This document shows positions 15,458 through 58,400 of a DNA stretch of 64,000 bases, piece by piece. Origin of the DNA: Amoebophrya sp. A120. Its lineage: Eukaryota > Protista > Dinoflagellata. The stretch spans positions 8,596,019-8,660,018 of the forward strand of contig CAJINV010000005.1 in NCBI GenBank assembly GCA_905178155.1, given 5' to 3'. The first letter of the stretch is position 1. Each line of letters begins with the position of its first letter. The translations under genes were made by a program, and so were the position numbers. The notes beneath the pieces are model-generated. The model had not been told where the DNA came from, searched no databases, and saw only the letters and a program-made list of their open reading frames with translations.

Positions 15458-15496
15458 ACAACATCTTCCCCGTTCCGGATCTTGGTCATCGTCTCC

Positions 15497-17708: not shown

Positions 17709-17777
17709 CTTGTTTTCTTAATGAATCTACTGCCACTAGTGTAAGTAGCACAGATTGGCGTCTAAGTCGCAGCGCAG

Positions 17778-24544: not shown

Positions 24545-27500
24545 ATGTCGATACGTGCCTCTTATCCTGTGCAAAAGTTTCGTACTCGTATAAATGCATT
24601 ACAAATTTCCTCAGCATGAGAAAGAAAATTTGTAATGCAGATTTGCCTTGGAAACAAGATTTGTAATGCTAAACTGGCATTTGTACGATACTTTTGCACA
24701 GGATACCTCTGGGCCGCCGTCCTCCGCGGTCGTAAAAGCCCGGGAAATATCAACTGCAGAAGTGTCTGGGTCTGGAAAGACGGAACTTGTTATGCGCATC
24801 TCGCAACACAAACAAAAATCTCTCATGCATAGACAGCAAGAGTTGCCCATTTTTTTCACCGGAATAATAGGCGATTCGTCATGCGGGTTAGGCAATGCCG
24901 CAGCTTCTCAAAACCTGTGATGCTAGACCTTGCTTGCCAGACCTTCCGGGTCATGGAAAAACAGCATGAGAAAAATCTGCATCCTTCCAGACCCAGACAC
25001 ATTTGCATTTGATAGGAAATCGAGTCTGAGGACGAGATATTATCCTGTGCAAAAGTAGCGCACTCGTACTAATTGGAGGCATGCATGACAAATTTCCTTT
25101 CCAAGGTAAAACAGCATGACAAAATCAATTTTTCGAAGACTACCACTTGTAATGCAATTTATACTAGTACGAATATGATGCTAATGCTTTTGCAATTCAT
25201 AGATACAACGAATCTACAACTGGATGGACGACATCGAGCTTTCGCGCCCGAGGAAAAACATCGCCCGAGACTTCGCCGACGGGCTTCTTGTTGCGGAAGT
25301 TGTTTCACAGTATTTCCCGCGACTAGTCGAGCTTCACAACTACAGCAGCGCCCATTCCCACGCCCTATCAAAGGTAAAAATGTCTGGGTCTGGAAGATTC
25401 CGGGATTTGTGATGCATATTTTGTATGATCCATGACGCATGCAATGCATGATCTAGCATCACAGATTTTTAGAGGGCTTCCTGATGCCTATTGCGCATAA
25501 GAAATGCCCTCTCCGTGCAACACAAACTGGATCCCTGTTGCTGGTCACGCAATGCAGATTTTTTTGGAATCCAAAGACAGCGTGACAAGTTGCAATTTTC
25601 CAGACCCAGACATTTTTGCAATCCATACGCCCAGAAGTCTTACAACTGGAATACCCTGAACAAGAAAGTTTTGCTATTACAATGAAAAATGCCCCCTCCC
25701 CATCAAAACGGAAATCTGTGATGCAATTTTGTGGTCACAAGTCAGCTTTGTGATGCTAGAAGGCAAAAGATCCGGACTGTAGTGCTGTCTAGCGTGGGAA
25801 AGCCTTGCAGCTCCAGGATGACAGGAGGCAACTGGAAGTGGGAAACAGCATGACAGATTGCCTGCAATTTAGGCCGCAACTTCGTCTCTTGGCCTTCTAG
25901 CAATACAAGCCCCCGATTTGTGTACTCAAATACAGCATCACAAATTCGCGCATCTTCCGTTTCCGATATGGGGTGGGGGGATTTTTCCTTTCGATATTTG
26001 CGAAAGCTCGGCTTTCAGTTACACCCCGGAGACATCGACGATGTGATCAAAGCCGTGCCCGGGGCGATAGAAAAGGTTTCTATATTTTTGTGTTTTTATT
26101 CTAAAATGAAGAATTTGATGTCCCTGGCAACATTTCGGACGATCGTGCCAGAAGATTTTCTTCTGCTGCCAGGATGATCGTGTAGCTCATGCTTGCTGTT
26201 GTACCGTTCAGAATGAGATCTTGATCCTATAATTCATGGTGCTGATCGACTACATGAACATGAGTGGAGGGGTACTAGAAAATGAAAACGTAAACATCAT
26301 CACAAAATAAAAATGCAGGTGCTCGTCCTCTTGCAACACTACATATCAAATGCAAAAATGTCTGGGTCTGGAAACTTGTGATGCAAGTCAGGGAAAAATG
26401 CGCATAAGTATAGTAATGCACTGCAAAGCATGACAAGTTTTTCCTTGGTTCAGAGTTGCGTACTCCGCATGAGAAACTGCGTTTCTGCATGACAGGCAAT
26501 AGAAGCCCTTTGCGGTCGCGCAATACAGAGCTCAGAGTCATGCCGGACTAGCATGACAAATCCCGGAATTTTCCAGACCCAGACATTTTTGCATTTGATA
26601 CTACATGGCACGGTACAAAAGAAGAGCTGAGGAGGGGAAGGACCAAAGTGTCATCGAGGCGGAAGAAAATCGTGCGCCGTCGAGCTCTATCCTACGCAGA
26701 AGTATCGTACTCGTAGTGATTGCAGCCATGCATGACAAATTTATTTCTCAAGTTAGACCCGCATATACAAATTTCATTTCTCATGCTTCGGAAACTTGTC
26801 ATGCAATAGAAATAGTTTCTACTAGTACAACGATACTTTTGCACAGGATAAGCTCAAGTAGCCGGCCAGTGTCCGCGAGAAGGAGCAGCAGCACGACGAC
26901 GCCAGCAGCTGCTATGGGAGTGTCAGGATTGAAATCGTCAAGGTTAAAATTATAGTTTGTCATGCATAAAATGCAGCCCACGAAGTGCCTGTCTTGCAAA
27001 AGTAGGCAAGGGGTGCAGATTGTAAGCCTGTTGAGGGGTAGAAACTGAGCTGCTACAAACATTAGCATGACAAAAGGCGTCTTCCTTACCCAAACAGCAT
27101 GACAAAATGGATTTCGGTTCTACCCAAATTTGTTATGCGCCACTTGGAAACTGGGTCAGTCACAACTTTCATCCATTTTATGCATCACAAGTTATTTCAA
27201 CTTTGTCGATTTCAATCCTGACACATCCATAGCAGCTGTAGGAGTGCCCAGCACGACCACGAGTGGAGGGGTCATGAAGTCCGATGTCGCAGCTCCAGGT
27301 GGATCCGCAGCTGCGATATGGCAGCGTCAGGATTGAAATCGTCAAAATTGAAATTAGTTTGTCATGCATAAAATGCAATGCAGAAAGTGCTTGCCTTGTA
27401 GAGTAGGCAAGGGAGGCAGATTGTAAGCCTGTTCCGAGGCGGTAGAAATAGAGCTGCTATTAAAGTAGCATGACTACATCAAAAGGCGCCTTCCTTATCC

Positions 27501-28050
27501 AAACAGCATGACTACAAACTGGATTTCAGCTCTACTCAAATTTCTCATGCGCCGCTTAGAAATTGGGCTTACAACTGGTATCGATTTTATGCATTACAAG
27601 TTATTTCAACTTTGTCGATTTCAACTCTGACACATCCATATGCGATGGGGCGAAATAAGGGGTCGATGAATAAGCTCCATCCGCAGGAGCAGCAGCAAAT
27701 GGTGAATCAGCAGAACGAAGAATCTATCCTGTGCAAAAGTATCGTACTCGTATAAATGCAAATCTTGCATTACAAATTTTTTTCTTAAGGTAAATCCGCA
27801 TGACAAATTTTATTTCTCATGCTGAGGAAATTTGTAATGCATTTATACGAGTGCGATACTTTTGCAGTTCATAGAATCCGCCCTGACAATACAGGAACTG
27901 CGGGAGACCATACTCCTCATGAGCGAGAAAATCAAAAAGCTGGAGCAACTGGCTCGGATAAAGGACGCCAAGATCGACAATTTGCAGCAGAAATTGTCGC
28001 AGACTGCGGGGGGAGGCGGGGTGGGTGGGTCGTCGCTTCTTGCCAGATGA
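24545..28050 (+). CDS. SPEF1: sperm flagellar protein 1 / CLAMP homologue (N-terminal calponin-homology domain, C-terminal coiled coil), 281 aa, 12 exons
   Basis: Spliced: MSIRASGPPSSAVVKAREIESEDEIQRIYNWMDDIELSRPRKNIARDFADGLLVAEVVSQYFPRLVELHNYSSAHSHAQKSYNWNTLNKKVLRKLGFQLHPGDIDDVIKAVPGAIEKVLVLLQHYM...IQELRETILLMSEKIKKLEQLARIKDAKIDNLQQKL...LLAR*. Ten introners plus GT-AG intron 26076-26318; exon total 846 nt. Confidence 0.93.
24563..24705. mobile_element. introner family B (SPEF1 intron 1)
   Basis: TATCCTGTGCAAAAGT TIR; repeat CCTCT/CCTCT. Confidence 0.92.
24748..25014. mobile_element. introner family A (SPEF1 intron 2)
   Basis: TAT...ATA TIR; repeat GGAAA/GGAAA. Confidence 0.92.
25041..25201. 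mobile_element. introner family B (SPEF1 intron 3)
   Basis: TAT...ATA TIR; repeat GATAT/GATAC. Confidence 0.9.
25366..25627. mobile_element. introner family A, inside the CH domain
   Basis: Repeat CGCCC/CGCCC; removal restores HSHAQKSYNW. Confidence 0.93.
25675..25996. mobile_element. introner family D, inside the CH domain
   Basis: Repeat TTTGC/TTTGC; removal restores KKVLRKLGF. Confidence 0.92.
26344..26600. mobile_element. introner family A
   Basis: Perfect TIR TATCAAATGCAAAAATGTCTGGGTCTGGAAA; repeat CTACA/CTACA. Confidence 0.94.
26688..26850. mobile_element. introner family B
   Basis: Repeat AGCTC/AGCTC. Confidence 0.9.
26913..27231. mobile_element. introner family C
   Basis: Repeat GCTGC/GCAGC. 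Confidence 0.9.
27317..27640. mobile_element. introner family C
   Basis: Repeat TGCGA/TGCGA; near reverse complement of 55138-55455. Confidence 0.9.
27725..27873. mobile_element. introner family B
   Basis: Repeat GAATC/GAATC. Confidence 0.92.
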
Positions 28051-30905: not shown

Positions 30906-32021
30906 TTGTCAGAAATGGCCATCTTTTGGTAATCACGCAACACAGATTTTTGCATGATCCAGACTAAGCATGACAAGTTGCATTCCTCCAGACCCAGACA
31001 CTTTTACATTTCATAGAGGTCCTACAACACCAAGCACAGCCGCGTCAGCTGTGTATCAAAAGGAAAAATCCCCCCACCCCATATCGAAATGGAAATCTGT
31101 GATGCGGGATTTGTGTACACAAATCGGCTTTGTATTGCAGGAAGGCATCGCGGCCAGATCCCCTGGCTATGTAGGGGCGTATCGGTCTAGTTGTTCGGCA
31201 TGGCAAACGGCTCCCCTTTAGGCCCAACAGCATGACAAATCGCCTCCATAATGGGGGCGAAGCTTTTGCCCTTGTCTTCTTGCAAGACAGATGTGATTTT
31301 TTGTGACCTCAAATCAGCAACACAAATTTGCGGAACATGCCTTTTCGATATGGGGAGGGGGGATTTTTCCTCACCATACTGCGTAGTAGTATTTTTGCGA
31401 ACTCCATTACCTTCTCTGTGGCTGTCATCGCACTGCTCTACGGAAGTGTCAGGATCTTCGAAATCGACAAAGTTCGAGTTGAAATTTTAATCTGTGACGC
31501 ATAAGATGCCACGCAGAGAAGTAAGTAGAAGTGCGACCCTATGTATTGCAGACAGTACATGTACGAGGGGGGCAACCGCTTCGAGTCCCGCTGAGGGGCA
31601 GGAGTTGGACAGCTGACTAGCATGACAGAATGGAGCTCCTTTGCCTTAAACAGCATGACAGATTTGCTTCCGGGGCGGGGAAAGTTTATATGTCTTGCGC
31701 CGACCACCACTATGTATAAAGTGAAAACGAGAAAAATTGGTGCTGTCGATTTTACGCATGACAAATCAACTTTGTCGATTTCGGTCCTGGCGCTTCTATA
31801 ATATGCTCCTGCTCTCAGATTGTTCCACGACGACTAATCCCACGGCTACCCTTGCGTGGGCCCTGACCCACAAAATAACTTCTAGTCCGCGGGCTGGATC
31901 ACCACTTGTCGCCGACGGGCCAAATGCTGGTCGCCGCGCCGCCCGGATACCGGGCACCTTATGCAATACAAATTTCCCGTACATGTACAACATGCATCAC
32001 AAATTTCAAAAATTTGGAGCG
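30906..32021 (+). repeat. near-identical copy of 52698-53810 (exons plus introners)
   Basis: Identical ORF translations at 30970/52762 and 31251/53043; only a few differences seen. Confidence 0.95.
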
Positions 32022-32043
32022 ATCACAAAGTTCAAAAATTTGG

Positions 32044-32930
32044 GTCGATACAACTTTTGCCTCTCCTCGTCATAGCCTACTCCTGACCACGATCGGGCTG
32101 GAAATGGGGCCAGCAAGCGAGCAGGCCCCCACAGAGACGACCTTTGCCGACCGCTGGACCGTGTATACAATCGCGCCGCGACCGGAGAAGAAGGAAGGAG
32201 TGTCTTCAACCACGAGGCCCGGAGTCGTGAATGCGCCCAGCAGAAACGATCTCGCACCGCCACTACAGTCCAGCGGACAGGAGGATCCCGCTATCGGTGT
32301 AGCAACCGCAGCGAGAGTGGCGCAAGCGGTGGGCCGCGACGATGCTGGACCGGCGGCATCGGCTGCGGAGGTTTTCGCGACCCCCTCCTCATCGTCACAA
32401 ATGCCAACGTTGCCTTCGCACCACGGACCGATGGGGTAGAGAGCGTCGTGATGGAACCGAGAAAGACGAAAATCATGACTTTTTTGAGAATAAGGGCTTG
32501 AAAATCAAAATATTACGTTTTGCGACTGAACCTTCCGGTATTGGTATCGGTTACGTTGAGCACATTTTTGAACCAGAACCATAATTGCTCATCTGGCAGT
32601 GCTACTGCTGCTTGTCTTCCTTCATGCTCAAAAGCAACTTTCATAATTCTGCGAAAATTGCAGCCCTGCGTCTTGTGCTACCAGTTTTGGTCACCACCTC
32701 TTTTGCGGTTTGCAAACAAATGCGAAATAGAGAATAAAGATCGACATCGAATGAATGGAAGTAGTTTTTGTTTGGAATAGTTTCAACCAAATATTTCGAT
32801 TACCAACTCCTGTTTGCCCACACGAGAAGAGAAATTCTATCCGACGAAAATGACATGAACGAAGGAGAATTCATGCCTGGTAAGAGAAAATCCAAAACGA
32901 ATAGTGCCAACTATCACGATTGCATCGAAG
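32044..32930 (+). repeat. diverged copy of 61948-62821 (last exon and 3' region)
   Basis: GLEMGPASEQAP...HHGPMG* and the downstream sequence are shared, with substitutions and indels. Confidence 0.92.
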
Positions 32931-32953
32931 AAAAGGACACAAAATGGAACGCG

Positions 32954-34780: not shown

Positions 34781-37164
34781 GCTCTACGTGAGAAGTTATG
34801 AAAAGGACACCATGCGGATGTGGTCTGTTGGTGACGAGCAGCTATTATTTGTTTTTGTGCTCAAGAACAGTAGATATTATCGTCGAACCTAGAGGAGGTG
34901 GAGCGCCAGGTGCTGACTTGTCATGTCAGACTCAGAAGGGTTCTCTTCTTTTTGATAAATATGTATGACTCTCTTGCCGACTCCGACAAGAATTGTTTTA
35001 TATATTTTCCGCGTTAACTGCAATTGTGTCTGGATCTGGAAGGATCCAAGCTTATGCTTCTAAGTTTGAATCGTACAAAAAGAAAAACCTGGAATGCATG
35101 AAGTTGAAGCGCAGAAGTTGATACCCGCTTCGTTTTAATTTGTTGCGCGCATTTGAATTTATTGCGCGTGGACACTGCACAAGCTTAATCGAAACTGCTG
35201 AGAGGCCCAGGCCGATGCGCGCCGCAGTATTGAGTACTGGCGACGTCAGAAGTACTTTAAATGCTCTCAGAAAACTTTAAGGAGCAGTAGCCCGAACTTC
35301 TGGGGCTGCAAAATTATACCTTTGCAGCTGCAAAGGTATAATATAACTTTGCAGGGGCCACAAGAGTTACTGCGCAGGATCACGCTTAGAAGCCGCACAA
35401 ATCGCCACATCCTACTTGAGTGCTTCGCCTCCATAAAACTATGCTCACGCACTGGAGAGGGTTTTAGAGACTGAACGGAAACCGATTGGACAGGAAGAAT
35501 CGTGCGCCGTGCGCTCCTGCCGCCCACAAGGTACCTAATTTATTCTCAATCTATGTAACGAATTCCAGACATCACATTCTAGGCGTCACAAGTAGGACTA
35601 GGTCGCGCAGCATCAGCGCGGACCTCGTGAGGGCCGGAATGGGTTAACCACCTCTGTGGCCCCATTTTTGTACACAGAATTCCGACAACCGTCGGAATTT
35701 GCCCGTGACCGATGCCCAAGCGGACGGTCAGCGAGAGCAGGTGGGGAGGGGCCTAACCTCCCGCGACTGCCACGCGCGCGCGCGTTAAGGTCACGTACCG
35801 ATATGGCGAAGCTGATGACGCTGGTCGCTAATGCAGGTGCGTCCTGGGCGACTGGAGCGCGGGTCGTACGACCCGAATTTGGACGAAAGTCCACCGAGGT
35901 GGACCATCCCGTGTGCCGACCCATACCGGTAGGCACCGTCTGTGCCACTGGTTCAGCCGGAACCCCTGCTGGTTGATGCACCTCTGTGCGCACTCTGGCA
36001 GGCTAGTAAGGATCTAGGATGTGAGGCTGTGAACGGGGTGCGCTTTGCATGCTTTGATCTGCTTATGCCAAGGAGCAACTCCGTCCATTACACACTTAGA
36101 AGAACCGCGTGCATTTATGAGGATGATTAATTTGACACCACACCGGCCGAGCATAGTTGCAGCCACCTCTGTGGCGCGTTGACTAGCTAGGAACTGCGCG
36201 GCCTAGGTGCATACGACAGCGGGGTCCGATCTATGTCCTCGGTGGTGCGGCGCAATGCGACGAGACAGGACAGCCGGAGGGCCACCCTGTAGACGCGACA
36301 AAGCCGGCGGGATACGCGTGGCGGATGAGGAGCCACAGGGCGGCGATTTCGGATGGGGGTTTGGGCCACGCGATCTCGGACTTGTTGCAGCCTCTGTTGC
36401 ACCCGGCGCGGCGACCTCTCGTCGCAGCGCTGGAGCACGGTTCGACCCACGTCTGTGGGCGGACAAGTGCGACGCCCGCAGCCACCTCTGTGGCGCGGAC
36501 GTCGCGGCGCGGTCCCTGCTGCGCGCCTCGCTGCTGTATCTAGTAGTACACAAGACGCTGCGAAGCAGCGCAGACACGCCTTTACTGATACAGAGCCGGA
36601 GTTCAGCACTACTGTGAAGGGTGTGACCTTTTGACGAGAACATACAAAGTAAAGCTGGCAGCCGTCGAGGGGCGCCAGCGTTCTGGGGATTTGGGAAGAA
36701 GTTTGTGTTCGCGCCAAGATATAGCGAATTCTACCCAAATTACGTCATGGATCAGGTACCACCAGGGCGGACTTGGATAAACTTTGGAAGGAGATTCAAA
36801 ACCAGCAAAAATTCGTCGAAGAACTGCTCAAGGAGCAGAAGGTGGCGGAACAGCTGAGGCGGCAAAAAGAATACAATTCGAACGTGTTGAGGCAGCGGCA
36901 AGAAGATTTCGCAGTGCAAAAGCATCGTATATTAGATTCGAGATTCGTACTAGACCACTACAACATTGGTCACGCAGTATATTTTTTTAGACAAAAAATT
37001 GGAATTTGTCATGCTGAGGACGTTGTGCTATTTTTATTTCGCAAAAAAACAGCAGATGATCTTCATCAACATGATATGCTGTATCTGTCATGCTACACTT
37101 ACTGCGATTTTTGGTGCGACGACTCTTACTTGTGCGGTACTTTTGTACAGGATGAAAAGCGGGA

Positions 37165-38163
37165 TATCAACTGTAAAAATGTCTGGGTCTGGAAGAATCC
37201 AACTTGTCATGCTGATTTTGGATTCTAAAAAAAATCTGTATTGCATGAGCAGCAAAGAGAGTCCAAGTTTTGCTACACGGAAAGAGCATTTGCTACACGG
37301 GGGTGCGCAAGAAACCACAACAGAGAAAAAGATCAAGCTCGGGTCGCGCGCGATGCTCGTCCCATTCGTTTTTTCCGACGGTTCACTTCCTTCATCAGGG
37401 CCTTGCTCAACCCTGGACCAGAACGAGTAGGACTAAGGACCCAAGAGGTAGGCACTGTAGCGGAAAGCTGGAGCAAAACTATTTTCTTGGAAAAAGAACC
37501 CAATAGGAGCCGACCTGCGTGGATGGTTACAAAACAGGTAGCTTGGCCCCAAATGGCAATGATCATTGGGAGCAGCAGAGCGCAGCAGGACCCCGGGACT
37601 GCAACAGCTCACCCCTGTTTTAGCTTAGAAATACGCAGTGCGCCGAGTATGCCACTACCTCGACCCCTCAAGAAAAGAAGTAGCCCCCCCAACTACACAC
37701 TCGCCGTCCGCGATCAGGATGCGATGCGTACTAACCAACATTGTGCGAACCGAGATCCCGCGGGGCACAGGGTCTGGGCGGCTCGAAGCAGAACGCGCAG
37801 CACAAGCGGGAGACAATACATCCAAAGGTGGGGATGGTCTCAGGTCGTTCAGGTCCGCCAAGGGTTGCGTCTCGCTATCAGGGTTTCGCCAACTCCGTGG
37901 GGGCGTTGCGGGTATCTCCCTAAAACACCAAAACCGGCACAAATTGGGCCGGCAGTCCGGGTAATTGCTCACCGAACGGCTTGTATGGCGAATAAGGTGC
38001 TCGACGAAGGAAGAAGTAAGCATGTAAGGAGCACCTCCGGTTGGTAGAGCAATCGGCTACCGAGGCACGTCAGGGGGCGTCGCTACTTCAATTCAATTCA
38101 ATGCAAAATGTGCATGACAAACCTGGCAATCTGTTCCAGACCCAGACATATTTGCATTTGATA
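37165..38163. mobile_element. 999-bp family A introner carrying about 0.75 kb of extra sequence
   Basis: Family A TIRs at both ends; repeat CGGGA/CGGGA. Confidence 0.85.
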
Positions 38164-39997
38164 CGGGACGCGAAGGAACAACAACGGAAAAAAGACCTGG
38201 AAGTTCTGGAGAGCGAGTTCGCCAAATTGACGAAAGAGTTGGAGCAGCTGCAGCATTACGCACTGGCACCGCAAAAGCATCGTATAAGTCCGATACTCGT
38301 AGACCACTATAACACTGGTCGCGCAGTACAATTCTTTGGACAAAAAATGGAATTTGTCATGCTGACGCTGTGCTATTTTTATTTCGCAATAAAACCCGCA
38401 GATCATGATCTTCATCGTCATATGCTGTATCTACTGTCATGCTACAATTACTGCGATTGTTATGACGAGTCTTACTTGTGCGGTACTTTTGCACAGGATG
38501 AAAAGCGGGAAGCGAAGGAGGAATGGCAATTGCTTGACGAGGAACAGGATCCCGCCATGCGGCAACTTTTCCAGCAGTCCGCGTCTTCTTCTTCTTCTCG
38601 GACTCGCGGCAATTCATCAAAAGCACGGCGGAACATGAGAAGTACTAAATAGAACTCAGTCTGTAAGGACAACTACGATGCGTCTCTTTTGCCAACAACT
38701 TCTGGCACTTTCATCAAAAAGGAGATCATGTCTAGCAGTATTGGCACTGACCGTGTAGTGGAAAATTATCGAGGATGAACAAAATCTAAGTCACCCTTTC
38801 GCACGAAAGAACCGCAGTCGTGGTAGTGATTCCTGCAACAGTACTGCACTTTTTTTTTTACTGGGTAGAAATTACTTCTTTTCTACTTCTCGTGTTTTAT
38901 CTTCTTTTCTTTACCCGGTGAGAGCCTAGTAGTACGCAAGTGAAGATCATGGACATTATCATTATACATAAGTGATCGACAGTATTTTTGGAAATCGCAT
39001 CAAAATCAAAGAGCAGTACGAGGGCGCGCCAAGCACGCACGTACGAAAGAAGCGGCATTTCGATTTTCATTGAAGAAAAAGAAATAATCACTGTCAGTTG
39101 AAAAACGAGAACGGTTGTAATTCTAATTTTGGCGTAGCTTCTGCAGCGCCAACATTTCAAATTTATCGAATGATAAACTAAAACAGACACAGATTCCCAG
39201 TATGAATTGAAAACTCTACTTTCGGAATTTCAGGATGAGCATAGAGTAAAAGTAATGGCGGGAGCGTAAAGATTCACTGCGGTTAAAGAATTCAATATAC
39301 AAAAAAAGCACGTACGTGCCTTATCTATCAGTCGAAGTAGTTTTGAAGGAAGAACCAAGTAGTTTTGAAAGAAGAAGTAGTTTTGAAGGAAGGAAGTACT
39401 TTGACAGCAATTATCTCCAAGAACAGCTGCAGTTGCACTTTATTATTAAGATTCCTACAACTCAAAATGCGCGAGCGCGCTAAGAAAGATAGAATCCGTC
39501 GTTGTTCAAAAACAGAAAACGCAATACAAATTACTACTAGTTACAGAAAGTGCTTACCTCCGAAAGTGCTTACCCCTCTACTACGCCTCGGTGTAGCAGA
39601 AGCAAGTTGCGACTTCAGATTTTTGTATTTGAACGCAACAAAACCTAAGATCATCCCAAAAACTACGCTTTAGACCACACAAAGAAGCAAGCAAGTTAGA
39701 CGATCGGAACCCGAACACAAAAACTAAAAAATCTACTACTACGACGGTCGAGCTGATGAAGCGTTGTTTCGCGCCAAAAACGAAATGCGTAACTTTGTCT
39801 TGCTACAGGTGACAGGAGGAATAAGCAGCAGTCATTACAAGACTACAAGGATTGCATCTCTAACGAATGAAAGTGGCTCGCATGCATGTTCTCCGTCGTA
39901 TGAGTATCGTTATGTGCGTATCTTGTCTTCGTTTGTTTTTGTGAGTACAAAGTGTCTCCGGAATCCAATTCCACTACCAAGATGAACAATTAGCTTT

Positions 39998-40291
39998 TTT
40001 GAAAGTCGACAAAGTTGGAATGATTTCTCATGCAGAAATTCCAAGGCATGAAGTGCCTCTCTTTCAGGGATGGAAAGTGAGGCCGACTGTCGGCCCGTTT
40101 GGGATCTGCGATAGAGCTGCTAAAGTAGCATGACAAAAGACGCCTCCTTTCCCTAAACAGCGCGACAAACTGGATGTAGGCGATGCGGAAATTTGTCATG
40201 CACCGCTTGGAAATTGGGCTTCCAACTGGTATCGATTTTATGCATCGCAGATTATTTCAACTTTGACGATTTCGGTCCTGACACTTCCATA
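39998..40291. mobile_element. family C introner with truncated left end, intergenic
   Basis: Right end GATTTCGGTCCTGACACTTCCATA; body similar to 27317-27640. Confidence 0.7.
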
Positions 40292-45227: not shown

Positions 45228-45929
45228 AAGAACTCAGTAGTCGGTGCTGCCAACTACGATGCGTCTCTTTCGCCAAAAACTTGTTCTGGCACTTTCATCA
45301 AAAAGGAGATCATGTCTAGCAGTATTTTTGGCACTGACCGCGTAGTGGAAAATTATCGAGGATGAACAAAATCTAAGTCACCCTTTCGCATAAAACCGCA
45401 GTCGTGGTAGTGATTCCTGCAACAGTACTGCACTTTTTTTTTTACTGGGTAGAAATTACTTCTTTTCTACTTCTCGCATTTTATGTTCTTTTCTTTACCC
45501 GGTGAGAGCCTAGTAGTACGCAAGTGAAGATCATGGACATTATCATTATANATTACTTCTTTTCTACTTCTCGCATTTTATGTTCTTTTCTTTACCCGGT
45601 GAGAGCCTAGTAGTACGCAAGTGAAGATCATGGACATTATCATTATATTTATAAGTTTTGATCGACAGTATTTATATTTTTGGAAATCGCATCAAAATCA
45701 GACAGCAGTACGAGGGCGCACTAAGCACGCACGTACGTTTTGCGAGAACTACGCCAACATTACAGCCGTGCGTTTTGAATTCAGTTTTTTTTTGGCATTA
45801 TTTTCAAAAGAGACCCTGACGCTGTGAGACCCAAACCAGCGAAACACGACGGCAGCGTGGTTTTTTTGTGTTTCGAATGACGGGAAAAAAATAAGCATAC
45901 CGTCGTGATTTCGATTTGTGTGTTTTTTT

Positions 45930-46680
45930 GGGGGATCCGCCCGTTCCCCGGGGATCCGCCCGCTGCCCGGGGATCCGCCTTCGCCCAGGGGATCCGCCCG
46001 CTCCCCGGGGGTCCGCCTTCGCCCAGGGGATCCGCCCGCTTCCCGGGGATCCGCCTTCCCCCAGGGGATCCGCCCGCTCCCCGGGGATCCGCCCGCTCCC
46101 CCCGGGGACCCGCCCGTTCCCCGGGGATCCGCCTTCGCCCAGGGGATCCGCCGGCCCGCTACTCGGGGATCCGCCTTCGCCCAGGAGCCCGCCCATTCCC
46201 CGGGGATCCGGGTTCGCGCAGGGGATCCGCCCGCTCCCCGGGGAGTCGCCTTCGCGCAGGGAATCCCTCCGCCCATTCCCCGGGGATCCGCCCGCTCCCC
46301 GGGGATCCGCCTTCCCCCAGGGGATCCGCCCGCTCCCCGAGGATCCGCCTTCGCCCAGGGGATCCGCCCGTTACTCGGGGATCCGCCCGGCTCCCCGGGG
46401 ATCCGCCCGTTCCCCGGGGATCCGCCCGCGCCCCGAGGATCCGCCCGCTTCCCGGGGATCCGCCTTCGCCCGGGGGATCCGCCTTCGCCAAGGGGATCCG
46501 CCCGTTACTCGGGGATCCGCCCGTTCCCCGGGGGTCCGCCCGCTTCCCGGGGATCCGCCCGCGCCCCGAGGATCCGCCCGCTTCCCGGGGATCCGCCTTC
46601 GCCCGGGGGATCCACCCTCGCCCCCGGGGGGTCCGCCCTCGCTTCGGGGGGTCCGCCCTTTCCCCGGGGAAATCCTCCCG
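45930..46680. repeat. GC-rich minisatellite, about 19-20 bp units with GGGGATCCGCC core
   Basis: Dozens of GGGGATCCGCC(CG/TT) units. Confidence 0.95.
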
Positions 46681-46714
46681 GCTGGGGTAGTGCGTACCAC
46701 GGGAGAACGGGCTC

Positions 46715-49590
46715 CGGAGGAATCCTCTCCGGAATCCCCTCCCGAAATCGACGCTGTGCCGCCGGGGAAAGACCGCGAAGGACGGCGCCAATCCGGTCAG
46801 AGGATTCCGGAGAGGATTTCGGAATCCTCTCCGGAATCCTCTGTGGAATCCTCCTCCGAAATCGAGGTCGTGCCGTCGGGGAAAGGGCGCCAAAGACGGC
46901 TCAACTTGGGCCAGAGGATTCCGGAGAGGATTTGGGAATCCTCTCCGGAATCCTCTGCGGAATCCTCCCCCGAAATCGAGGCCGTGCCGTCGGGGAAAGG
47001 GCGCCCAAGACGGCTCAACTTGGGCCAGAGGATTCCGGAGAGGAAAGGGCGCGAAACACGGCTCAACTTGGGCCAGAGGATTCCGGAGAGGATTTTGGAA
47101 TCCTCTCCGGAATCCTCTGTGGAATCCTCCCCCGAAATCGAGGCCGTGCCGTCGGGGAAAGGGCGCCAAAGACGGCTCAACTTGGGCCAGAGGATTCCGG
47201 AGAGGAAAGGGCGCGAAACACGGCTCAACTTGGGCCAGAGGATTCCGGAGAGGATTTTGGAATCCTCTCCGGAATCCTCTGTGGAATCCTCCCCCGAAAT
47301 CGAGGCCGTGCCGTCGGGAAAAGGGCGCGTCGCGAAAGACGGCTCAACTTGGGCCAGAGGATTCCGGAGAGGATTTTGGAATCCTCTCCGGAATCCTCTG
47401 TGGAATCCTCCCCCGAAATCGAGGCCGTGCCGTCGGGGAAAGGGCGCCAAAGACGGCTCAACTTGGGCCAGAGGATTCCGGAGAGGAAAGGGCGCGAAAC
47501 ACGGCTCAACTTGGGCCAGAGGATTCCGGAGAGGATTTTGGAATCCTCTCCGGAATCCTCTGTGGAATCCTCCCCCGAAATCGAGGCCGTGCCGTCGGGG
47601 AAAGGGCGCCAAAGACGGCTCAACTTGGGCCAGAGGATTCCGGAGAGGAAAGGGCGCGAAACACGGCTCAACTTGGGCCAGAGGATTCCGGAGAGGATTT
47701 TGGAATCCTCTCCGGAATCCTCTGTGGAATCCTCCCCCGAAATCGAGGTCGTGCCGTCGGGAAAAGGGCGCGTCGCAAAAGACGGCTCAACTTGGGCCAG
47801 AGGATTCCGGAGAGGATTTGGGAATCCTCTCCGGAATCCTCTGCGGAATCCTCCCCCGAAATCGAGGCCGTGCCGTCGGGGAAAGGGCGCCAAAGACGGC
47901 TCAACTTGGGCCAGAGGATTCCGGAGAGGAAAGGGCGCGAAACACGGCTCAACTTGGGCCAGAGGATTCCGGAGAGGATTTTGGAATCCTCTCCGGAATC
48001 CTCTGTGGAATCCTCCCCCGAAATCGAGGTCGTGCCGTCGGGAAAAGGGCGCGTCGCAAAAGACGGCTCAACTTGGGCCAGAGGATTCCGGAGAGGATTT
48101 GGGAATCCTCTCCGGAATCCTCTGCGGAATCCTCCCCCGAAATCGAGGCCGTGCCGTCGGGGAAAGGGCGCCAAAGACGGCTCAACTTGGGCCAGAGGAT
48201 TCCGGAGAGGAAAGGGCGCGAAACACGGCTCAACTTGGGCCAGAGGATTCCGGAGAGGATTTTGGAATCCTCTCCGGAATCCTCTGTGGAATCCTCCCCC
48301 GAAATCGAGGTCGTGCCGTCGGGAAAAGGGCGCGTCGCAAAAGACGGCTCAACTTGGGCCAGAGGATTCCGGAGAGGATTTGGGAATCCTCTCCGGAATC
48401 CTCTGCGGAATCCTCCCCCGAAATCGAGGCCGTGCCGTCGGGGAAAGGGCGCCAAAGACGGCTCAACTTGGGCCAGAGGATTCCGGAGAGGAAAGGGCGC
48501 GAAACACGGCTCAACTTGGGCCAGAGGATTCCGGAGAGGATTTTGGAATCCTCTCCGGAATCCTCTGTGGAATCCTCCCCCGAAATCGAGGTCGTGCCGT
48601 CGGGAAAAGGGCGCGTCGCAAAAGACGGCTCAACTTGGGCCAGAGGATTCCGGAGAGGATTTGGGAATCCTCTCCGGAATCCTCTGCGGAATCCTCCCCC
48701 GAAATCGAGGCCGTGCCGTCGGGGAAAGGGCGCCAAAGACGGCTCAACTTGGGCCAGAGGATTCCGGAGAGGAAAGGGCGCGAAACACGGCTCAACTTGG
48801 GCCAGAGGATTCCGGAGAGGATTTTGGAATCCTCTCCGGAATCCTCTGTGGAATCCTCCCCCGAAATCGAGGTCGTGCCGTCGGGAAAAGGGCGCGTCGC
48901 AAAAGACGGCTCAACTTGGGCCAGAGGATTCCGGAGAGGATTTGGGAATCCTCTCCGGAATCCTCTGCGGAATCCTCCCCCGAAATCGAGGCCGTGCCGT
49001 CGGGGAAAGGGCGCCAAAGACGGCTCAACTTGGGCCAGAGGATTCCGGAGAGGAAAGGGCGCGAAACACGGCTCAACTTGGGCCAGAGGATTCCGGAGAG
49101 GATTTTGGAATCCTCTCCGGAATCCTCTGTGGAATCCTCCCCCGAAATCGAGGTCGTGCCGTCGGGAAAAGGGCGCGTCGCAAAAGACGGCTCAACTTGG
49201 GCCAGAGGATTCCGGAGAGGATTTTGGAATCACTCTCCGGAATCCTCGGTGGAATCCTCCCCCGAAATCGAGGGAGTGCCGTCGGGGAAAGGGCGCCAAA
49301 GACGGGCCAACTTGGGCCAGGGGATTCCGGAGAGGATTTTGGAATCCTCTCCGGAATCCTCTGTGGAATCCTCCCCCGAAATCGAGGCAGTGCCGTCGGG
49401 GAAAGGGCGCGAAACACGGCTCAACTTGGGCCAGAGGATTCCGGAGAGGATTTTGGAATCCTCGCCGGCATCCTCTGTGGAATCCTCATCCGAAATCGAG
49501 GGCGTGCCGTCGGGAAAAGGGCGCGAAAGACGGCTCAACTTGGGCCAGAGGATTCCGGAGGGGCTTCCGGAATCCCCTCCGGAATCCTCC
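46715..49590. repeat. satellite with 281-bp higher-order period and palindromic subunits
   Basis: Minus-strand ORF ends recur at 47668, 47949, 48230, 48511, 48792 and 49073; GAGGATTCCGGAGAGGATT-N4-AATCCTCTCCGGAATCCTC in each subunit. Confidence 0.96.
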
Positions 49591-50824
49591 GTGGAAAATG
49601 TGCGCCGGTTTGCCGGGGCCGCCAGGTTGCTCGCAATCCGCAGCAGACTGTGGCGATTTAAGCACACGAGACGCCAACACAGACGCGGCGCGGTTGTGTA
49701 CACAAACAGCAGCGGAGTCCATGCGCGCGCCGCCTTTTCGGTTGCATTGCGACACATTTTAGCACGACCTAAGCCGAAGGTTTTCCGGGAAACCTTAAAC
49801 GACGTTTCCCGAGCGGAGTCCATTGATTTCTGGGTCTCGCAGCGTCATACTCTCTTTCAAAAATTGGGGACAGCCGGGGCATTTTGAATTCAATTTTTTT
49901 TTGGCATTATTTTTGAAAGCTGGGGCGTAGGCATTTTGAATTCACGGCCGGAGTTAACAGCTTTCTGGAGGGGTAACAGTTACGAATGTAACAGTTGAGG
50001 ACGCCATAACCTGCTACAATGATATCGCGACTTGGCCCACCGAAATGAAAAATTCGCTTATTTGTTTGTTTCTTGTTGGTGGTCAAGTTTTTTTGCTTTC
50101 TCCACCACAACTAGATCTATTTTATCTTCTTGTGAAAAAAATGTAATTTTAAATTAGTCCCCGATCTATTTATATCTTCTTTTCTTGGTCCGGTGACGAG
50201 AGCATAGTATGCAAGTGATGGACGTCATAAGTGATCGACATTATTATAACTTTTGGAAATTATCGCATCAAAATCAAACACGCAGTACGAGGGCGCACCA
50301 AGCACGCACGTACAGTCAGCTGAAAAAAGAGAACGGTAGACAACATTGAAGACTTTTTATGGAAAGCAGCAATCATGTGGGGGCGCATGGAGAAGGGCAA
50401 CAAATGCTGCTTTTTTCCATGATGAAGACCATCATCTTGTTGCATTCGTACATTAATTACAGCACTTCTATCTGAGCTTGTTGCATCTGTATAATTTATC
50501 ACAGCACCACCCAGCAGCACGACCGGGTGGCTGGACAATGATGAAGGAATCGAAGTCATCACTTCGTGTTGGTGTAGTTCTTGCAGCACCAACATCAAAA
50601 AAAAAAATATTTCAAACGTATTAACTCTTTCTGAAGACGCGCGCTCCGATAGAAGGACATTCTCATTCATAAGAGTAAGATAACGTAAGGATAAAAAGAA
50701 GTAGTGCTCGCACTACTTATTCCCCCTCGAAAAACAAGCTTCCTGAAGCAGGTGAACCGCTGACCTTGTAGGAGAGTTGTGCGAAGTTGTTGTAGTACTT
50801 CAACTTCTACTATGCCTGGCTGCT

Positions 50825-52495: not shown

Positions 52496-55400
52496 ATGCA
52501 GGGTTCTTGTTCCAGGCAAAAGGGTCTACTTCTACGCGAGGTTATCAAATGTAAAAATGTCTGGGTCTGGAAGGTGGGTGCAAGACATCTCATGCAGGTT
52601 CAACATAACAGATCAGGTCTGGAACGCAGGTTCTAGCATGACAGATTCTGTGAGGTCTGTATCATGCCCATTCTGCATGAGAGACTCACTCCAAAGTTTG
52701 TCAGAAATGGCCATCTTTTGGTAATCACGCAACACAGATTTTTGCATGATCCAGACTAAGCATGACAAGTTGCATTCCTCCAGACCCAGACACTTTTACA
52801 TTTCATAGAGGTCCTACAACACCAAGCACAGCCGCGTCAGCTGTGTATCAAAAGGAAAAATCCCCCCACCCCATATCGAAATGGAAATCTGTGATGCGGG
52901 ATTTGTGTACACAAATCGGCTTTGTATTGCAGGAAGGCATCGCGGCCAGATCCCCTGGCTATGTAGGGGCGTATCGGTCTAGTTGTTCGGCATGGCAAAC
53001 GGCTCCCCTTTAGGCCCAACAGCATGACAAATCGCCTCCATAATGGGGGCGAAGCTTTTGCCCTTGTCTTCTTGCAAGACAGATGTGATTTTTTGTGACC
53101 TCAAATCAGCAACACAAATTTGCGGAACATGCCTTTTCGATATGGGGAGGGGGGATTTTTCCTCACCATACTGCGTAGTAGTATTTTTGCGAACTCCATT
53201 ACCTTCTCTGTGGCTGTCATCGCACTGCTCTACGGAAGTGTCAGGATCTTCGAAATCGACAAAGTTCGAGTTGAAATTTTAATCTGTGACGCATAAGATG
53301 CCACGCAGAGAAGTAAGTAGAAGTGCGACCCTATGTATTGCAGACAGTACATGTACGAGGGGGGCAACCGCTTCGAGTCCCGCTGAGGGGCAGGAGTTGG
53401 ACAGCTGACTACCATGACAGAATGGAGCTCCTTTGCCTTAAACAGCATGACAGATTTGCTTCCGGGGCGGGGAAAGTTTATATGTCTTGCGCCGACCACC
53501 ACTATGTATAAAGTGAAAACGAGAAAAATTGGTGCTGTCGATTTTACGCATGACAAATCAACTTTGTCGATTTCGGTCCTGGCGCTTCTATATGCTCCTG
53601 CTCTCAGATTGTTCCACGACGACTAATCCCACGGCTACCCTTGCGTGGGCCCTGACCCACAAAATAACTTCTAGTCCGCGGGCTGGATCACCACTTGTCG
53701 CCGACGGGCCAAATGCTGGTCGCCGCGCCGCCCGGATACCGGGCACCTTATGCAATACAAATTTCCCGTACATGTACAACATGCATCACAAATTTCAAAA
53801 ATTTGGAGCGTACTAAAACCTGTCATGCTAAACTAGGATCGAAGCCAAGTTTTGTCATGCAGAGACCGCATTTGTACGTCGTGTGCGGGAAATTTACTGT
53901 GGATACACGTTTGCTGCGTGGCATTCAGATCCAGAAGACCTACCTGGCGTACAGCGTGCCAGGTTCTCGCACGTACCGTGTGCAAAAGTATCGTACTCGT
54001 ATAAGTGCAAGTCTTGCATCACAAATCTTGTTCCCAAGCCAAAGCAGCATTACAAATTTTATTTCTCATGCTGAGGAAATCGAAATTTGTAATGCACTTA
54101 TACGAGTACGATACTTTTGCATTTTAAAGCACGGTAGTCACAATAACTTTCCCCCGCAGTACGCACCTGTGACGCGCGAGGACCTCCGCCAGGGCCCACC
54201 CCCCCCTGCTGGCGGTGGAGGAGGAGCATTCCTGGGCCAGTTTTCCTTTCTCGGGGGCCTCGCGGGCCGCGACAGCAACAGCGACCATGTAGTGCCGATT
54301 CCGTCTTTGCAAGAAGCCCAAACCGCCCCGCCGACCACTCAGTTGTACTACGATGCAAATGCGGGGGGCCCGCCCCCCGGGAGTCGTGTAGAAGCAGTAG
54401 AGCCGCGAATATCCACGAAAAAACACCCATCCCCATCCATTTTTCGCATGACAAATACGTGGAATTTATGCATGTTTTGCATGACAAATTGGATGGGGAT
54501 GGGTGTTTCTTCCTGGATAGCGAACCATATTCCCAGGGTTCGCGGCGGCGGGTGGAGAGTATGAACTGCAAAAGTATCGTACTCGTATAAATGCATGACA
54601 AATTCCCTCAGCATGAGAAATGAAATTTGTAATGGGAATTTACCTTGAGAAAAAAATTTGTAATGCATGACTGTAATACGAGTGCGATACTTTTGCACAG
54701 GATAGAGAGGAGCCACAGACCATCCTGCCACCGCATCTGCAGCATATCAAGTGCAAATATGTCTGGGCCGGGAAGATTGCCAGCAGGTTTGTGATGCAGA
54801 TTTTGCAGGACCCATGATGCCTGTGATACATGCCCTAGCATCACAGTTTTTTGGAGGGCTTCCCGATGCACATTCCGCATGAGAAATGCCCTCACCACGT
54901 AGCACAAACTGGACTCCTTTTGCACTTGCTGGTCATGCAATACAATTTTTTTCAGAATCCAAAGACAACATCACAAGTTGCAATCTTTCAGACCCAGACA
55001 TATTTGCAATGCATGCAGCACTTACGTGACCAACAGCAGCAAATGCAGATCGCTCAGGCACCAGCTGGTGGGCGTTATGATCCTTCTTCTCCAACCTACT
55101 CGTCGTCGTCCCCCAGCACTACCGCTGCGGGCGCAGCTATGGATGTGTCAAAGTTGAAATCGACAAAGTTGAACAAATAACTTGTAATGCATAAAGTCGA
55201 TACCAGTTGCAAGCCCAATCTCTAAGCGGCGCATGACAAATTTGAGTAGAGCCGAAATCCGGTCTGTAATGCTAATGCTGCTTGGGTAAGGGAGACGCCT
55301 TTTGTCGTGCTACTTTAGCAGCTCTATTTCTACCCCGAAACAGGCTTACAATCTGCCTCCCTCGCCTACTCTGCAATACAGGCACTTTCTGCGTTGCATT

Positions 55401-58400
55401 TTATGCATGACAAACTTTTTTCAACTTTGACGATTTCAATCCTGACAGCTCCATAGCAGCTCTGAGCCAGTTGTGGAAACGGTGCTGCGGAACGAACATG
55501 CAAGCGCTATCCTGTGTAAAAACTTCCCCACACCATAGTTGTCATGCAAATCCGCATGCTTAAAATGTTTCTCATTCGGAGCCCCATGAGAAGCATTTTC
55601 TAATGCTGTCTTGAAATTTGTCATGCTCCAATCAGCATGAGATACTAGATCTGTAATGCTGCTGAACTAGTTCAAACAGCACGAGACTACGCGTCCAAAT
55701 TTGTCATGCGAAACAGCCAAAGCTTGTGGATTTGTCTAGCCGATTCTCCATCTTGACTATGGGGTGGGGACGTTTTTACATAGGATAAGCGCAACACACC
55801 CAGGACTTCTCCGCCCGACCAGGGCCACCTGCAACGGAGTTTCACCAACTCCACGTGGACGACCCACGCCTCCGCGGTCCTCGTCCGGGCGGGTCGGTAA
55901 CCATAGCAGCGGCCCGGGCAGCTGCGGCCCGGGTGGCTGCGGCCCAGGCGGCGGGCAACATGCAGGTTTTCGATCCCTCGGTAGGACCTTTACAAGGAGC
56001 AGACCCAAGTAGTAATATGACCCGGGCTCTTATCCAGGAAAAAAAATGTGTAAGTGTAAGTTTGTAGGTTGAACAGCATCACAAATTCGTTTTTGCACTA
56101 CAGGGAACAAAACCTGTCATGCGCAGCTAGTAAGTGGAAACACGTACTATGATAGTAGTCTATGACGCACTTCCAGCATAACAAGTGTGACTGTTTTGCA
56201 TTTTCTGCATCACAGATTTACACTTAGACAGTTTTTTTCTTGCATAGCTCTGTCGCCGGAGGAGCATCAGTATTTGCTTCTCACGAACGACGCGTATGCG
56301 GACCGGCTATACAGTGCAAAAATATCGTGTTCGTTGTATTGCAATCATGCATTACAAATCTTTTTCTTGAGGTAGATCAGCACTACAAATTTCATTTCTC
56401 ACGCTGAGGAGATTTGTAATGCATTTTTTTATACGAGTGTGATAGTGATGCTTTTGCATTGCATAACAGCATTACAAAAGCAAGTACTCCGTGTTCTTCG
56501 GGGGCGGTATGCTGTGCGGCCTGGCCACGTATCATTTGTAAAAACGTCCCCACCCCAGAGTCAAGATGAGGATTTTGCAGCACAAACCTTCAAGTTTTGG
56601 GAGCCACACATGACAAGCTCCAGGCTGTAGTGTATGACAGTTTAATAGCAAGGAAGTCGCATAACAAATCCATCTCCTTATCCTGTTTACAGCATTACAA
56701 GTTCCAAAACACCATGGGAAATGCCTCTCATGGGGATGCGCATTACACATGCTCTTGGTCTTGTGCTTGCAGATCTGCATGACAACTCTGGGGTGGGGAT
56801 GTTTTTACACAGGATACCACGGTCGCGGGCATCATCTGGGCGGCGACCATGGAGCCGGACTTGCGGCCCTTCTGTATCCTAAGTCAAAACGGGACCCACA
56901 CCCCATAGTCAATCAGTTGGGAAATCTGCTAGACAAATCTACAGCCTTTGGTTGTTGCGCATGACAAATTTGGGCTCGACGCAATGTAGAAGTCCTGTGT
57001 AGCTGCTAGAGAAGCAGCATCACAGATCTACGAAATCATGCAGATTCGAGCATCGCAAATCTTAAAAAACCACGATAAAAAACTTCTCATGGGGCTCCGC
57101 ATGGAAAACATTTTAAGCATTCAGGCTTGCATGACAAGTATGGGGTGAGCACGCTATTACACAGCATATTCTGTCCAGTCTCGCTCAATCCGGAGTACAA
57201 GTCGCTCTTTCGCCATCCGCACCGGTGCCTGGTGTTGCCGGAAGCGGTTGCAGACTCGTGGTACACCAGCAGACTGCTGCAGTTATCAAGTGCAGAAGTA
57301 TCGTACTAGTAGTAATTGCAATACAAATTACTTCAGCATGACAGAGGAAATTTGGCATGCGGGTTTTTTACCATAAAAAAGCAATTTGTAATGCATGACT
57401 GCGATTACTACGAGGGAGTACGATACTTTTCCATGTGATAGCAGTCCATCGACACTTATTCCGACGCGTATAGCGACTCCTTTTGGAATATCCTGTGTAA
57501 AAACGTCCCCATACCAGAGTCAAGATGGGAAATCTGCTAGACAAATCAACCAGGTTTGGTTGCTTCGCATGACAAATTTGTCCTCGTAGTGCAATCCTGC
57601 TTAAGTAGCTTAGCAACATCACAGATCTAGCGCATCATGCTGATTCTAGCATCACAAGTTCCACGACACGACTAGAAAACGCCTGTCATGTTGGGGCTCC
57701 GCGTGAGAAACTTTTTCGGCATGCAGATTTGCATGACAACTCCGGTGTGGGGACATTTATCGTCAGGATATAGAAAAACACGCTGCCGGAGAAGGAGAAA
57801 ATCTACGAACTGATTCGGGACCTTCGCGACAACAACATCAACGAGAATCTGAATCTGGATGTGATCCAAAGCATCTTGGTGAAAGCCGAAGAGGATCAGC
57901 AGGCCGTGGGAGTGCAACTCGTAGCATCTCCTTCATCGTCTTCGCCAAGCAACCCCGTCATGGCCACCGCGCCGGCACTACGCTTGTTGTCATTGTCGCC
58001 CTCGTGGCCCAGTGCCGGCCTTCGCGTCGTGCCAACATCCTCCGCATCTTCAGGCTCAAGCAGCGCCAGCGCCGGTTCTACTGCAACTAGAGCTACCCTT
58101 TCGTCTTCCGTAAAGGGTGGGGTCGCATTGACCCCCCCGAAGCAGCCGATCTTGGCCCGTTCCCTGACCACGCAGGACCCGAATCCACCGATCGCGCTAC
58201 CGACATTAGCACAACAACAGGAAGTTGTAGAACAGCCTGGACAAGGAACCGTGATGGGCTCCTTGCCCAGCAGCACGGCCGACGGCGACGTCACAGGTGG
58301 ATCTGCAGTTGTAGCCGCCAGTCCGCTTAGAAGTGCCTTGGCTGCTGGTGCAGTTCATCCGGGCGGCAGGACAGCTGCTATCGGGGATGCCACGCCCCCC

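What the first reader, a model, noticed from the sequence alone, without database searches (positions are those of the whole stretch)
27317..55455. The same introner sits in both orientations inside + strand genes
55138-55455 is the near reverse complement of 27317-27640 (its start TATGGATGTGTCAAAGTTGAAATCGACAAAGTTGAA matches the inverted end of the SPEF1 copy). Family B shows the same pattern: 27725 versus 54560, and 5399 versus 58418. Both hosts are on the + strand and both need removal. A spliceosomal branch point or a ribozyme core would be strand-specific, so recognition probably relies on the symmetric termini and stem.
Basis: partly seen in the sequence, partly recalled or inferred. Interest (0 to 1): 0.8.

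Follow-up and report, generated by a model that had tools for sequence, protein, structure and literature searches.

The report
Introners spliced out in either orientation
Small hairpin-ended transposons matching the published non-GT-AG introns of the marine parasite Amoebophrya sit in genes facing either way and are missing from likely-RNA contigs in both directions; the cut likely falls one base before and four bases after the element and is likely made by a loosened spliceosome reading signals that both ends carry.

Summary
Observation confirmed: 55138-55455 is the reverse complement of 27317-27640 (88%); the two family-B pairs too (89%, 82%). The elements are TAT...ATA inverted-repeat inserts with 5-bp target duplications, matching the published Amoebophrya A120 introners. 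All 26 of 26 elements in two tested + strand genes, in both orientations, are absent from likely-RNA contigs of one sample (element plus 5 nt). In a related assembly orientation is about even (94:115).

The inference is only partly supported. Symmetric ends explain it, but they do not exclude a spliceosome: either-orientation spliceosomal introners are published, and each end here carries the same candidate signals. Processing looks directional: six informative junctions fit one cut (1 nt before, 4 nt after; chance 0.13), and end substitutions spare U+2, A+3 and A-7 (p=0.001 pooled, 0.058 in loci alone). No overall selection on RNA pairing was seen (G.U 182 vs A.C 190), so the stem's role is unproven.

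This scan already reported the fixed cut and conserved bases on other pieces of this genome. Added here: the orientation test and a one-sided target motif (172 of 276 sites, 12% in controls). Known system; mechanism open and testable.

The parts
27317..27640 (+). Family A introner, reference orientation, TAT...ATA, flanked by a perfect 5-bp duplication (27312-27316, 27641-27645); inferred intron 27316-27644
   Evidence: absent from contig by arithmetic; fold z -6.8
55138..55455 (-). Family A introner, inverted, perfect 5-bp duplication (55133-55137, 55456-55460); inferred intron 55137-55459
   Evidence: joint 55132-55456 skips 323 = 318+5 in X1 and X4; fold z -5.5
26913..27231 (+). Family A introner in gene 1
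   Evidence: arithmetic
27725..27873 (+). Family B introner in gene 1
   Evidence: arithmetic
24563..24705 (-). Family B introner, inverted, in the same gene 1 as three forward B copies
   Evidence: 0.83 reverse vs 0.69 forward to 27725; arithmetic
25041..25201 (+). Family B introner; imperfect duplication places the cut at or before base 4
   Evidence: tables 5c and 8; frame test
26688..26850 (+). Family B introner; spanned whole by a contig of the likely-DNA run X5 at single-copy depth
   Evidence: record 12 (26576-26936, depth 51)
24221..24474 (-). Family C introner upstream of the first ATG; imperfect duplication places the cut at or after base 4 (orientation call weak, 0.71 vs 0.66)
53974..54128 (+). 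Family B introner with altered ends (TAC...AAA), still removed
   Evidence: skip 160 = 155+5
54560..54704 (-). Family B introner, inverted
   Evidence: skip 150 = 145+5
56308..56465 (+). Family B introner; cut after base 3-5 of the duplication
   Evidence: skip 163
57284..57440 (-). Family B introner, inverted
   Evidence: skip 162
58418..58567 (-). Family B introner, inverted
   Evidence: skip 155
5399..5552 (+). Family B introner; removal inferred from the reading frame only
   Evidence: longest + frame 478 aa with it, 711 aa without it
55508..55787 (+). Family E introner, forward
   Evidence: skip 285
56530..56816 (-). Family E introner, inverted
   Evidence: skip 292
56875..57168 (-). Family E introner, inverted
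   Evidence: skip 299
57489..57770 (-). Family E introner, inverted; cut after base 2-5
   Evidence: skip 287
53749..53905 (+). Family H introner; cut at or after base 4
   Evidence: skip 162
58625..58892 (-). Family C introner; duplication 2 of 5 identical, cut after base 2-4
   Evidence: skip 273
26076..26318 (+). Canonical GT-AG intron of gene 1; missing from the X1 contig and kept in X5; marks X1 as spliced RNA and the gene as +
   Evidence: 243 nt closes the arithmetic
24545..28050 (+). Host gene 1, SPEF1-like CH-domain protein, about 281 aa after splicing
   Evidence: start and stop read
52496..61360 (+). Host gene 2, about 1030 aa, function not tested; 23 elements in the model, 15 tested on contigs
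   Evidence: start and stop read
3181..7800 (+). Host gene of 5399 (end not determined); 908-aa stop-free frame after removing 7 elements

Best explanation
These are non-coding inverted-repeat transposons that lie in genes in both directions and are absent, with one copy of their 5-bp duplication, from likely-RNA contigs in both directions; they are likely removed by a U1-less, relaxed spliceosome that would read the same end signals in either orientation and likely cuts one base before and four bases after the element. Shown: TAT...ATA ends, 5-bp duplication, near-even orientation, removal of element plus 5 nt. Inferred: insertion by a DDE transposase with a 5-nt stagger, blind to gene direction and guided by a one-sided C-R-A motif 11-13 bp away. 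Because both ends are alike, any insertion gives an intron that starts N-U-A-U and ends U-tract, 7 nt, A-U-A-N4. U+2 and a purine at +3 would act as the remnant donor, and A-7 as a branch nucleophile at a fixed distance from the acceptor. The long stem would bring the ends together in place of U1 and AG recognition. The variable 'splice motifs' in the literature would then simply be target-site bases.
For: 26 of 26 elements in two genes absent from contigs, both orientations of A, B and E. Six informative junctions intersect at one register whatever the element's direction. End substitutions: 5' TAT 0/2/9, mirrored 3' 3/9/2, Fisher p=0.001; both A+3 changes are to G after a G, giving GT donors. 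AG just before the inferred cut 36 of 276 vs 8.6% same-phase control, p=0.02, not at other registers. Phase 0 excess under this register, 95/56/62. A120 retains U2, U4, U5, U6 and 83 of 89 spliceosomal proteins but no detected U1 (PMC7789003 section 10). Either-orientation spliceosomal introners exist.
Against: No lariat, branch point or spliceosome dependence was tested. Intron +1 is any base (G 93 of 279) and GT..AG occurs in only 8 of 279, whereas spliceosomes normally need both (established knowledge). The polarity rests on 25 substitutions: the first, uncurated count showed none (3/6/9 vs 4/8/3 of 196), loci alone give p=0.058, and each mirrored pair alone gives p=0.07-0.25. Six junctions share a register by chance in 13% of trials. 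No G.U excess supports the stem (182 vs 190; 592 vs 619). The AG test is one of four registers. RNA evidence is one sample, contigs only, RNA by guess. A stable stem would have to be unwound for branching.
Confidence: 0.55

Rival explanations
1. A separate, non-spliceosomal protein nuclease and ligase measure from the base of the RNA stem (1 nt on the 5' side, 4 nt on the 3' side), as proposed for Euglena nonconventional introns.
For: No constraint at intron +1 or -1/-2 beyond a slight AG excess. Strong stems in both orientations: mean pairing over 0.5 in 87% sense and 91% antisense of 278, z -6.8 and -5.5. U1 not detected. Euglena uses a similar staggered geometry and circular products (PMC12501133; PMC11282704). 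Family B position 21 favours U.G over C.A in the transcript, 28 vs 9.
Against: No overall selection on pairing. Terminal pairs are often broken by A.C oppositions while base identity at +2, +3 and -7 is kept. The Euglena CDG/CHG signature is absent. 15% of A120 canonical introns share the architecture, which suggests one machine.
Confidence: 0.3
2. Mixed or loose register: a spliceosome-like machine is guided by the stem but cuts anywhere near bases 3-5 of the duplication, so there is no single rule.
For: Mismatches at duplication bases 4-5 fall at third codon positions in 10 of 14 vs 4 of 16 at bases 1-3 (p=0.03), as expected if both copies can reach the mRNA. Farhat et al. describe variable positions.
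Against: No alternative letters at the informative junctions in the contigs (table 3; contigs drop rare variants). All six junctions fit one register.
Confidence: 0.1
3. Removal happens in DNA (programmed excision or empty alleles), or by self-splicing.
For: X1 and X4 are RNA only by guess; no DNA control was laid on gene 2; 422 joint rows were not shown.
Against: The same contig also lacks a GT-AG intron. X5 contigs cross exon-element borders at depth 43-52, like unique sequence. No Rfam family in the window. Eight families with different interiors, in both directions, leave no common ribozyme core.
Confidence: 0.05

Closest known systems
Introner elements / non-canonical introns of Amoebophrya sp. 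A120 (Farhat et al. 2021, PMC7789003; Gozashti et al. 2025, PMC12130899)
   Same: TAT + 7 nt + AAA inverted repeats, 5-bp direct repeats (Fig. S19 legend), many families, 110-360 nt, no GT-AG, RNA-supported removal. Very likely the same system.
   Different: In the text I saw, these papers give no orientation analysis, no single cut register (position called variable or unknown), no polar base constraint and no one-sided target motif. Figures were not visible to me.
Either-orientation spliceosomal introners of Polarella glacialis and Aureococcus anophagefferens (bioRxiv 10.1101/2020.10.14.339549, passages)
   Same: TIR/TSD elements that create introns in either orientation.
   Different: Those need GT/GC/GA and AG from the element or the duplication and show orientation bias. 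Here the duplication is nearly unconstrained and orientation is about even.
Euglena nonconventional introns (PMC12501133, passages; PMC11282704, section 6)
   Same: MITE-like, non-GT-AG, terminal stem with a fixed stagger and a longer 3' side.
   Different: Signature N3CDG...CH'GN5-6|R, against N|TAT...ATA-N4 here; unrelated lineage; circular products shown there, untested here.
Fritillaria borealis non-canonical introns (through PMC11282704 section 6 and bioRxiv 10.1101/2025.08.15.670264, passage)
   Same: MITE-derived non-GT-AG introns handled by an adapted U2 spliceosome.
   Different: Preferred AG-AC/AG-AT ends there; free terminal bases here.
Ginger2/TDD transposons (PMC2836005, passages)
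   Same: TIRs; TDD-4/5 make 5-bp duplications; A120 family 38 has integrase-like homology (PMC12130899).
   Different: TGTNR termini against TAT here; no transposase found; Gozashti et al. state the A120 element lacks Ginger termini and duplications.

Membership tests
Amoebophrya A120 introner elements | Inverted repeats starting TAT, seven variable bases, then at least three A | tested here: met
   families B-H by direct reading (motif); family A keeps TAT but lacks the A run at 11-13
Amoebophrya A120 introner elements | 3-5 nt direct repeats at the borders | tested here: met
   exact 5-mer in 267 of 365 loci elements; length 4: 4, length 6: 2; 24 of 44 in the window
Amoebophrya A120 introner elements | Removed from transcripts without GT-AG | tested here: met
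   26 of 26 in likely-RNA contigs of one sample; GT..AG in 8 of 279
Amoebophrya A120 introner elements | Host organism is Amoebophrya A120 | not tested
   no genome held; assignment rests on the motif match to PMC7789003
MITE (non-autonomous TIR transposon) | TIRs, fixed-length duplication, short, non-coding, many copies | tested here: met
MITE (non-autonomous TIR transposon) | Cognate autonomous transposase with the same ends | not testable with these tools
   no genome; records behind the loci not held
Ginger2/TDD | TGTNR termini | tested here: not met
   TAT at 381 and 398 of 418 ends; pattern
Ginger2/TDD | 4-5 bp duplication | tested here: met
   5 bp, as TDD-4/5
U2 spliceosomal intron | GT/GC...AG ends | tested here: not met
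   8 of 279 under the inferred register
U2 spliceosomal intron | Invariant U+2 and purine +3 | tested here: met
   0 changes at +2 and 2 A-to-G at +3 among 282 loci and 51 window elements; small numbers; depends on the inferred register
U2 spliceosomal intron | Branch-point adenosine and lariat | not testable with these tools
   A-7 changes 2 times vs 9 at its mirror position, a hint only
Euglena nonconventional intron | N3CDG...CH'GN5-6|R signature | tested here: not met
   intron +4 is T, not C; signature
Euglena nonconventional intron | Terminal stem required for removal | tested here: inconclusive
   stem predicted; no overall G.U excess
Euglena nonconventional intron | Excision as full-length circles | not testable with these tools
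   no raw reads covered the genes
Self-splicing group I/II intron | Conserved strand-specific catalytic core | tested here: not met
   0 Rfam matches at gathering threshold; removal in both orientations

The most novel reading that the evidence does not exclude
Amoebophrya A120-type cells run a second, non-spliceosomal splicing machine that measures 1 and 4 nt from a transposon's end structure, so every insertion of this superfamily, in either direction and at almost any site, is healed in the mRNA; it arose convergently with the Euglena system and is paired with a transposase that picks targets by a one-sided motif 11-13 bp from the cut.
Probability: 0.25. Interest if true: 0.85.

Novelty: already known. 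Interest (0 to 1): 0.45.

Why it matters
How A120 removes its many non-GT-AG introns without a detectable U1 has been open since 2021. Orientation-blind removal with one register turns the 'variable splice motifs' into one rule and names three bases and one geometry to mutate. It also explains how such a transposon can spread through exons: neither direction nor site sequence matters much. The one-sided target motif gives a handle on the unknown transposase. The elements themselves are published, either-orientation introners are published elsewhere, and this scan has reported the register on other pieces of the genome, which limits the score.

Tried and rejected
TA target-duplication (Tc1/mariner) reading: leaving TA breaks the frames and contigs skip element plus 5; rejected. 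Whole genome: not held, so no genome-wide orientation ratio. Runs X8 and X9 did not cover the gene; X2 and X3 covered only repeat parts of gene 2; no holder is on record as RNA. None of this is evidence on expression. Splicing efficiency by orientation could not be measured: contigs give one depth per record. Viral contigs: 0 matches to a family C end. More sequence from the records behind the loci: not held. Register by stop-codon logic in loci: 0 of 30 single mismatches gave a stop, and coding-likelihood differences were flat. General 5'-versus-3' arm conservation: no difference outside family B (p=0.68). General strand bias of substitution: none except T>C in family C, p=0.016. Coupling of intron +1 and -1 letters: none evident. 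The raw family B ratio 82:53 is biased by my search pattern (66:17 among exact matches, 16:36 among others); the neighbour-only ratio 29:38 was used. A first pairing of the target motif as T-13 with C+11 was wrong; the linked pairs are on one side. Huff et al. 2016 was not held and is cited only through.
Full report
1. Observation. The elements are partly palindromic (self-reverse identity 0.57-0.76), so orientation calls are clear for A, B, E, F and weak for many C and D copies. Inverted TAT...ATA pairs are far above chance (50 vs 0-3). Among 44 elements chosen without a repeat criterion, the flanking direct repeat is 5 bp (24 exact; lengths 4 and 6: 0). I catalogued 49 elements in 8 families by hand, plus 1144-1404 and 3404-3656.

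2. Removal. Run X1 (RNA by guess) holds a 1130-nt contig over 23956-28004. The missing lengths are 845 = 4 elements + 4x5 and 2074 = 7 elements + 7x5 + 243, the last being a GT-AG intron on +; the in-silico product is exactly 1130 nt. So one transcript loses family B in both directions. For gene 2, one 3995-nt X1 contig, and two X4 contigs of the same sample, skip 15 of 15 elements in 53600-58950 by element plus 5 nt: 14 from joint rows, one from adjoining record coordinates; one further row in X2/X3 is a repeat chimera. Run X5 keeps the GT-AG intron and crosses element borders at depth 43-52, like unique sequence, so the DNA carries the elements (gene 1 only, 422 joint rows hidden). Limits: one sample, contigs, no strand or efficiency; 5399 rests on its frame alone.

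3. Orientation at larger scale. 365 unique elements were found, 267 with an exact 5-bp repeat. Host strand was called with a coding model that recovered + for both window genes in cross-tests; 293 elements got a call and 279 lie in frames of 80 aa or more. Same:opposite is 65:77 for non-B families and 29:38 for B neighbours, 94:115 together, p=0.17. These loci have no RNA test; removal is inferred from open frames.

4. Register. Imperfect duplications bracket the cut: at or after base 4 (24221, 53749), at or before base 4 (25041, 58625), 3-5 (56308), 2-5 (57489). The only common value is after base 4, in forward and inverted copies alike. The intron is then one base + TAT...ATA + four bases. 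Six junctions agree by chance in 13% of trials, so this is inferred. Side support: AG precedes this cut in 36 of 276 sites vs 8.6% control (p=0.02) and phase 0 is in excess. Against a strict rule: mismatches at bases 4-5 are mostly third-position (10 of 14).

5. Stem or signals. Both copies fold strongly and sense equals antisense in energy over 278 elements (p=0.30), which any inverted repeat gives. If RNA pairing were under selection, G.U should outnumber A.C on the transcribed strand; it does not (182 vs 190; 592 vs 619). One exception found after the fact is family B position 21 (28 vs 9; 5 vs 1 among 12 window copies, read). The three end bases behave directionally. My first count, with boundary errors, showed nothing. 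After seeing earlier notes of this scan I recounted: of 282 loci elements 20 deviated, 3 were dropped as shifted boundaries (L042, L077, L078), and 8 window deviations were added by hand. 5' TAT changed 0/2/9 times and the mirrored 3' positions 3/9/2 times (p=0.001; loci alone p=0.058). U+2, a purine at +3 and A-7 are what is kept. That resembles a donor remnant and a branch A at fixed distance; fixed branch-to-acceptor spacing in some reduced genomes is recalled, not from a call.

6. Mechanism. A DDE transposase with a 5-nt stagger inserts the elements regardless of gene direction (inferred; no transposase found). The shared ends give the same pre-mRNA signals either way. A U1-less spliceosome is the most likely remover (0.55), a separate nuclease-ligase next (0.30), a loose register (0.10), DNA excision or self-splicing least (0.05).

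7. Target motif. Sites carry C-R-A at +11 to +13 from the duplication, or its complement on the other side, in 172 of 276 loci sites and 20 of 47 window sites against 11.9% of control positions; both sides together only 9 times against 29 expected; side is unrelated to element direction (109:103). Being strand-symmetric, it likely reflects target choice in DNA. The listed earlier notes of this scan did not mention it (short excerpts only).

8. Literature. PMC7789003: abstract, passages, sections 10, 11, 12, 16, supplement legends and part 1 of 5; figures not seen, and Figs 3 and S19-S25 may bear on register. PMC12130899: passages and 19 of 58 A120 rows of supplement 8; files 13-14 not searched; its automated duplication calls range 2-5 nt. 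PMC9860276: passages, section 7. PMC11282704: passages, section 6. PMC12501133, PMC8469720, PMC2836005, bioRxiv 10.1101/2020.10.14.339549 and 10.1101/2025.08.15.670264: passages; bioRxiv supplements closed. Huff 2016, Henriet 2019 and the journal version of Roy 2023 not seen. I found no statement on orientation of Amoebophrya introners in searches or word finds 9, 26, 27, 32, 51.

9. Verdict. Real, and a published system. Orientation-blind removal is shown here; the mechanistic inference drawn from it is not compelled. Interest 0.45.

Noticed in passing
flanks of window elements and of loci L001-L129: One-sided target motif C-R-A 11-13 bp from the duplication (172 of 276; 20 of 47; control 12%), rarely on both sides; likely transposase target preference.
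   Followed up: partly
family B, inverted-repeat position 21 (e.g. window 27853, 54684): A-to-G on the transcript's 3' arm (U.G pair) 28 times vs 9 for the mirror change; exact-consensus left ends lie at the 5' side 66:17. Selection or strand-specific mutation, unexplained.
   Followed up: partly
all families, e.g. window 27767-27840: Shared internal 9-mer GCATNACAA in both directions (282 vs 286 on the transcribed strand in 279 elements; 109 of 137 window hits inside called elements); likely a transposase-binding repeat.
   Followed up: partly
window 9682-18343: LTR retrotransposon on the - strand: 568-bp LTRs 96% alike, TG...CA ends, 5-bp duplication, RVT_2 and retroviral SH3 hits, Copia-like order, frames broken.
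   Followed up: partly
window 30906-32021 and 52698-53810: 1116-bp near-identical duplicate (99.6%) starting inside a family C element and carrying exons and two further elements of gene 2; 32041-32934 also repeats 61945-62826 (92%).
   Followed up: no
window 59893-60340: Family E element lengthened by an internal insert of about 150 bp; removing it whole keeps the frame; outside the stretch laid on reads.
   Followed up: no
window 24221-24474: An element upstream of the first ATG of gene 1 is also removed, so removal does not seem limited to coding sequence.
   Followed up: partly
window 45895-49707: Two tandem arrays: a 19-bp GC-rich unit and a 114/162/119-bp higher-order unit.
   Followed up: no
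window 25020-25035 and other exons: Exons between neighbouring elements can be as short as 21-37 nt.
   Followed up: no
window 36784-45737: Rearranged repeats (36784-37291, 38101-39045, 44012-45737) with truncated or nested family B and C pieces; 39999-40291 is a family A copy lacking its left end.
   Followed up: no
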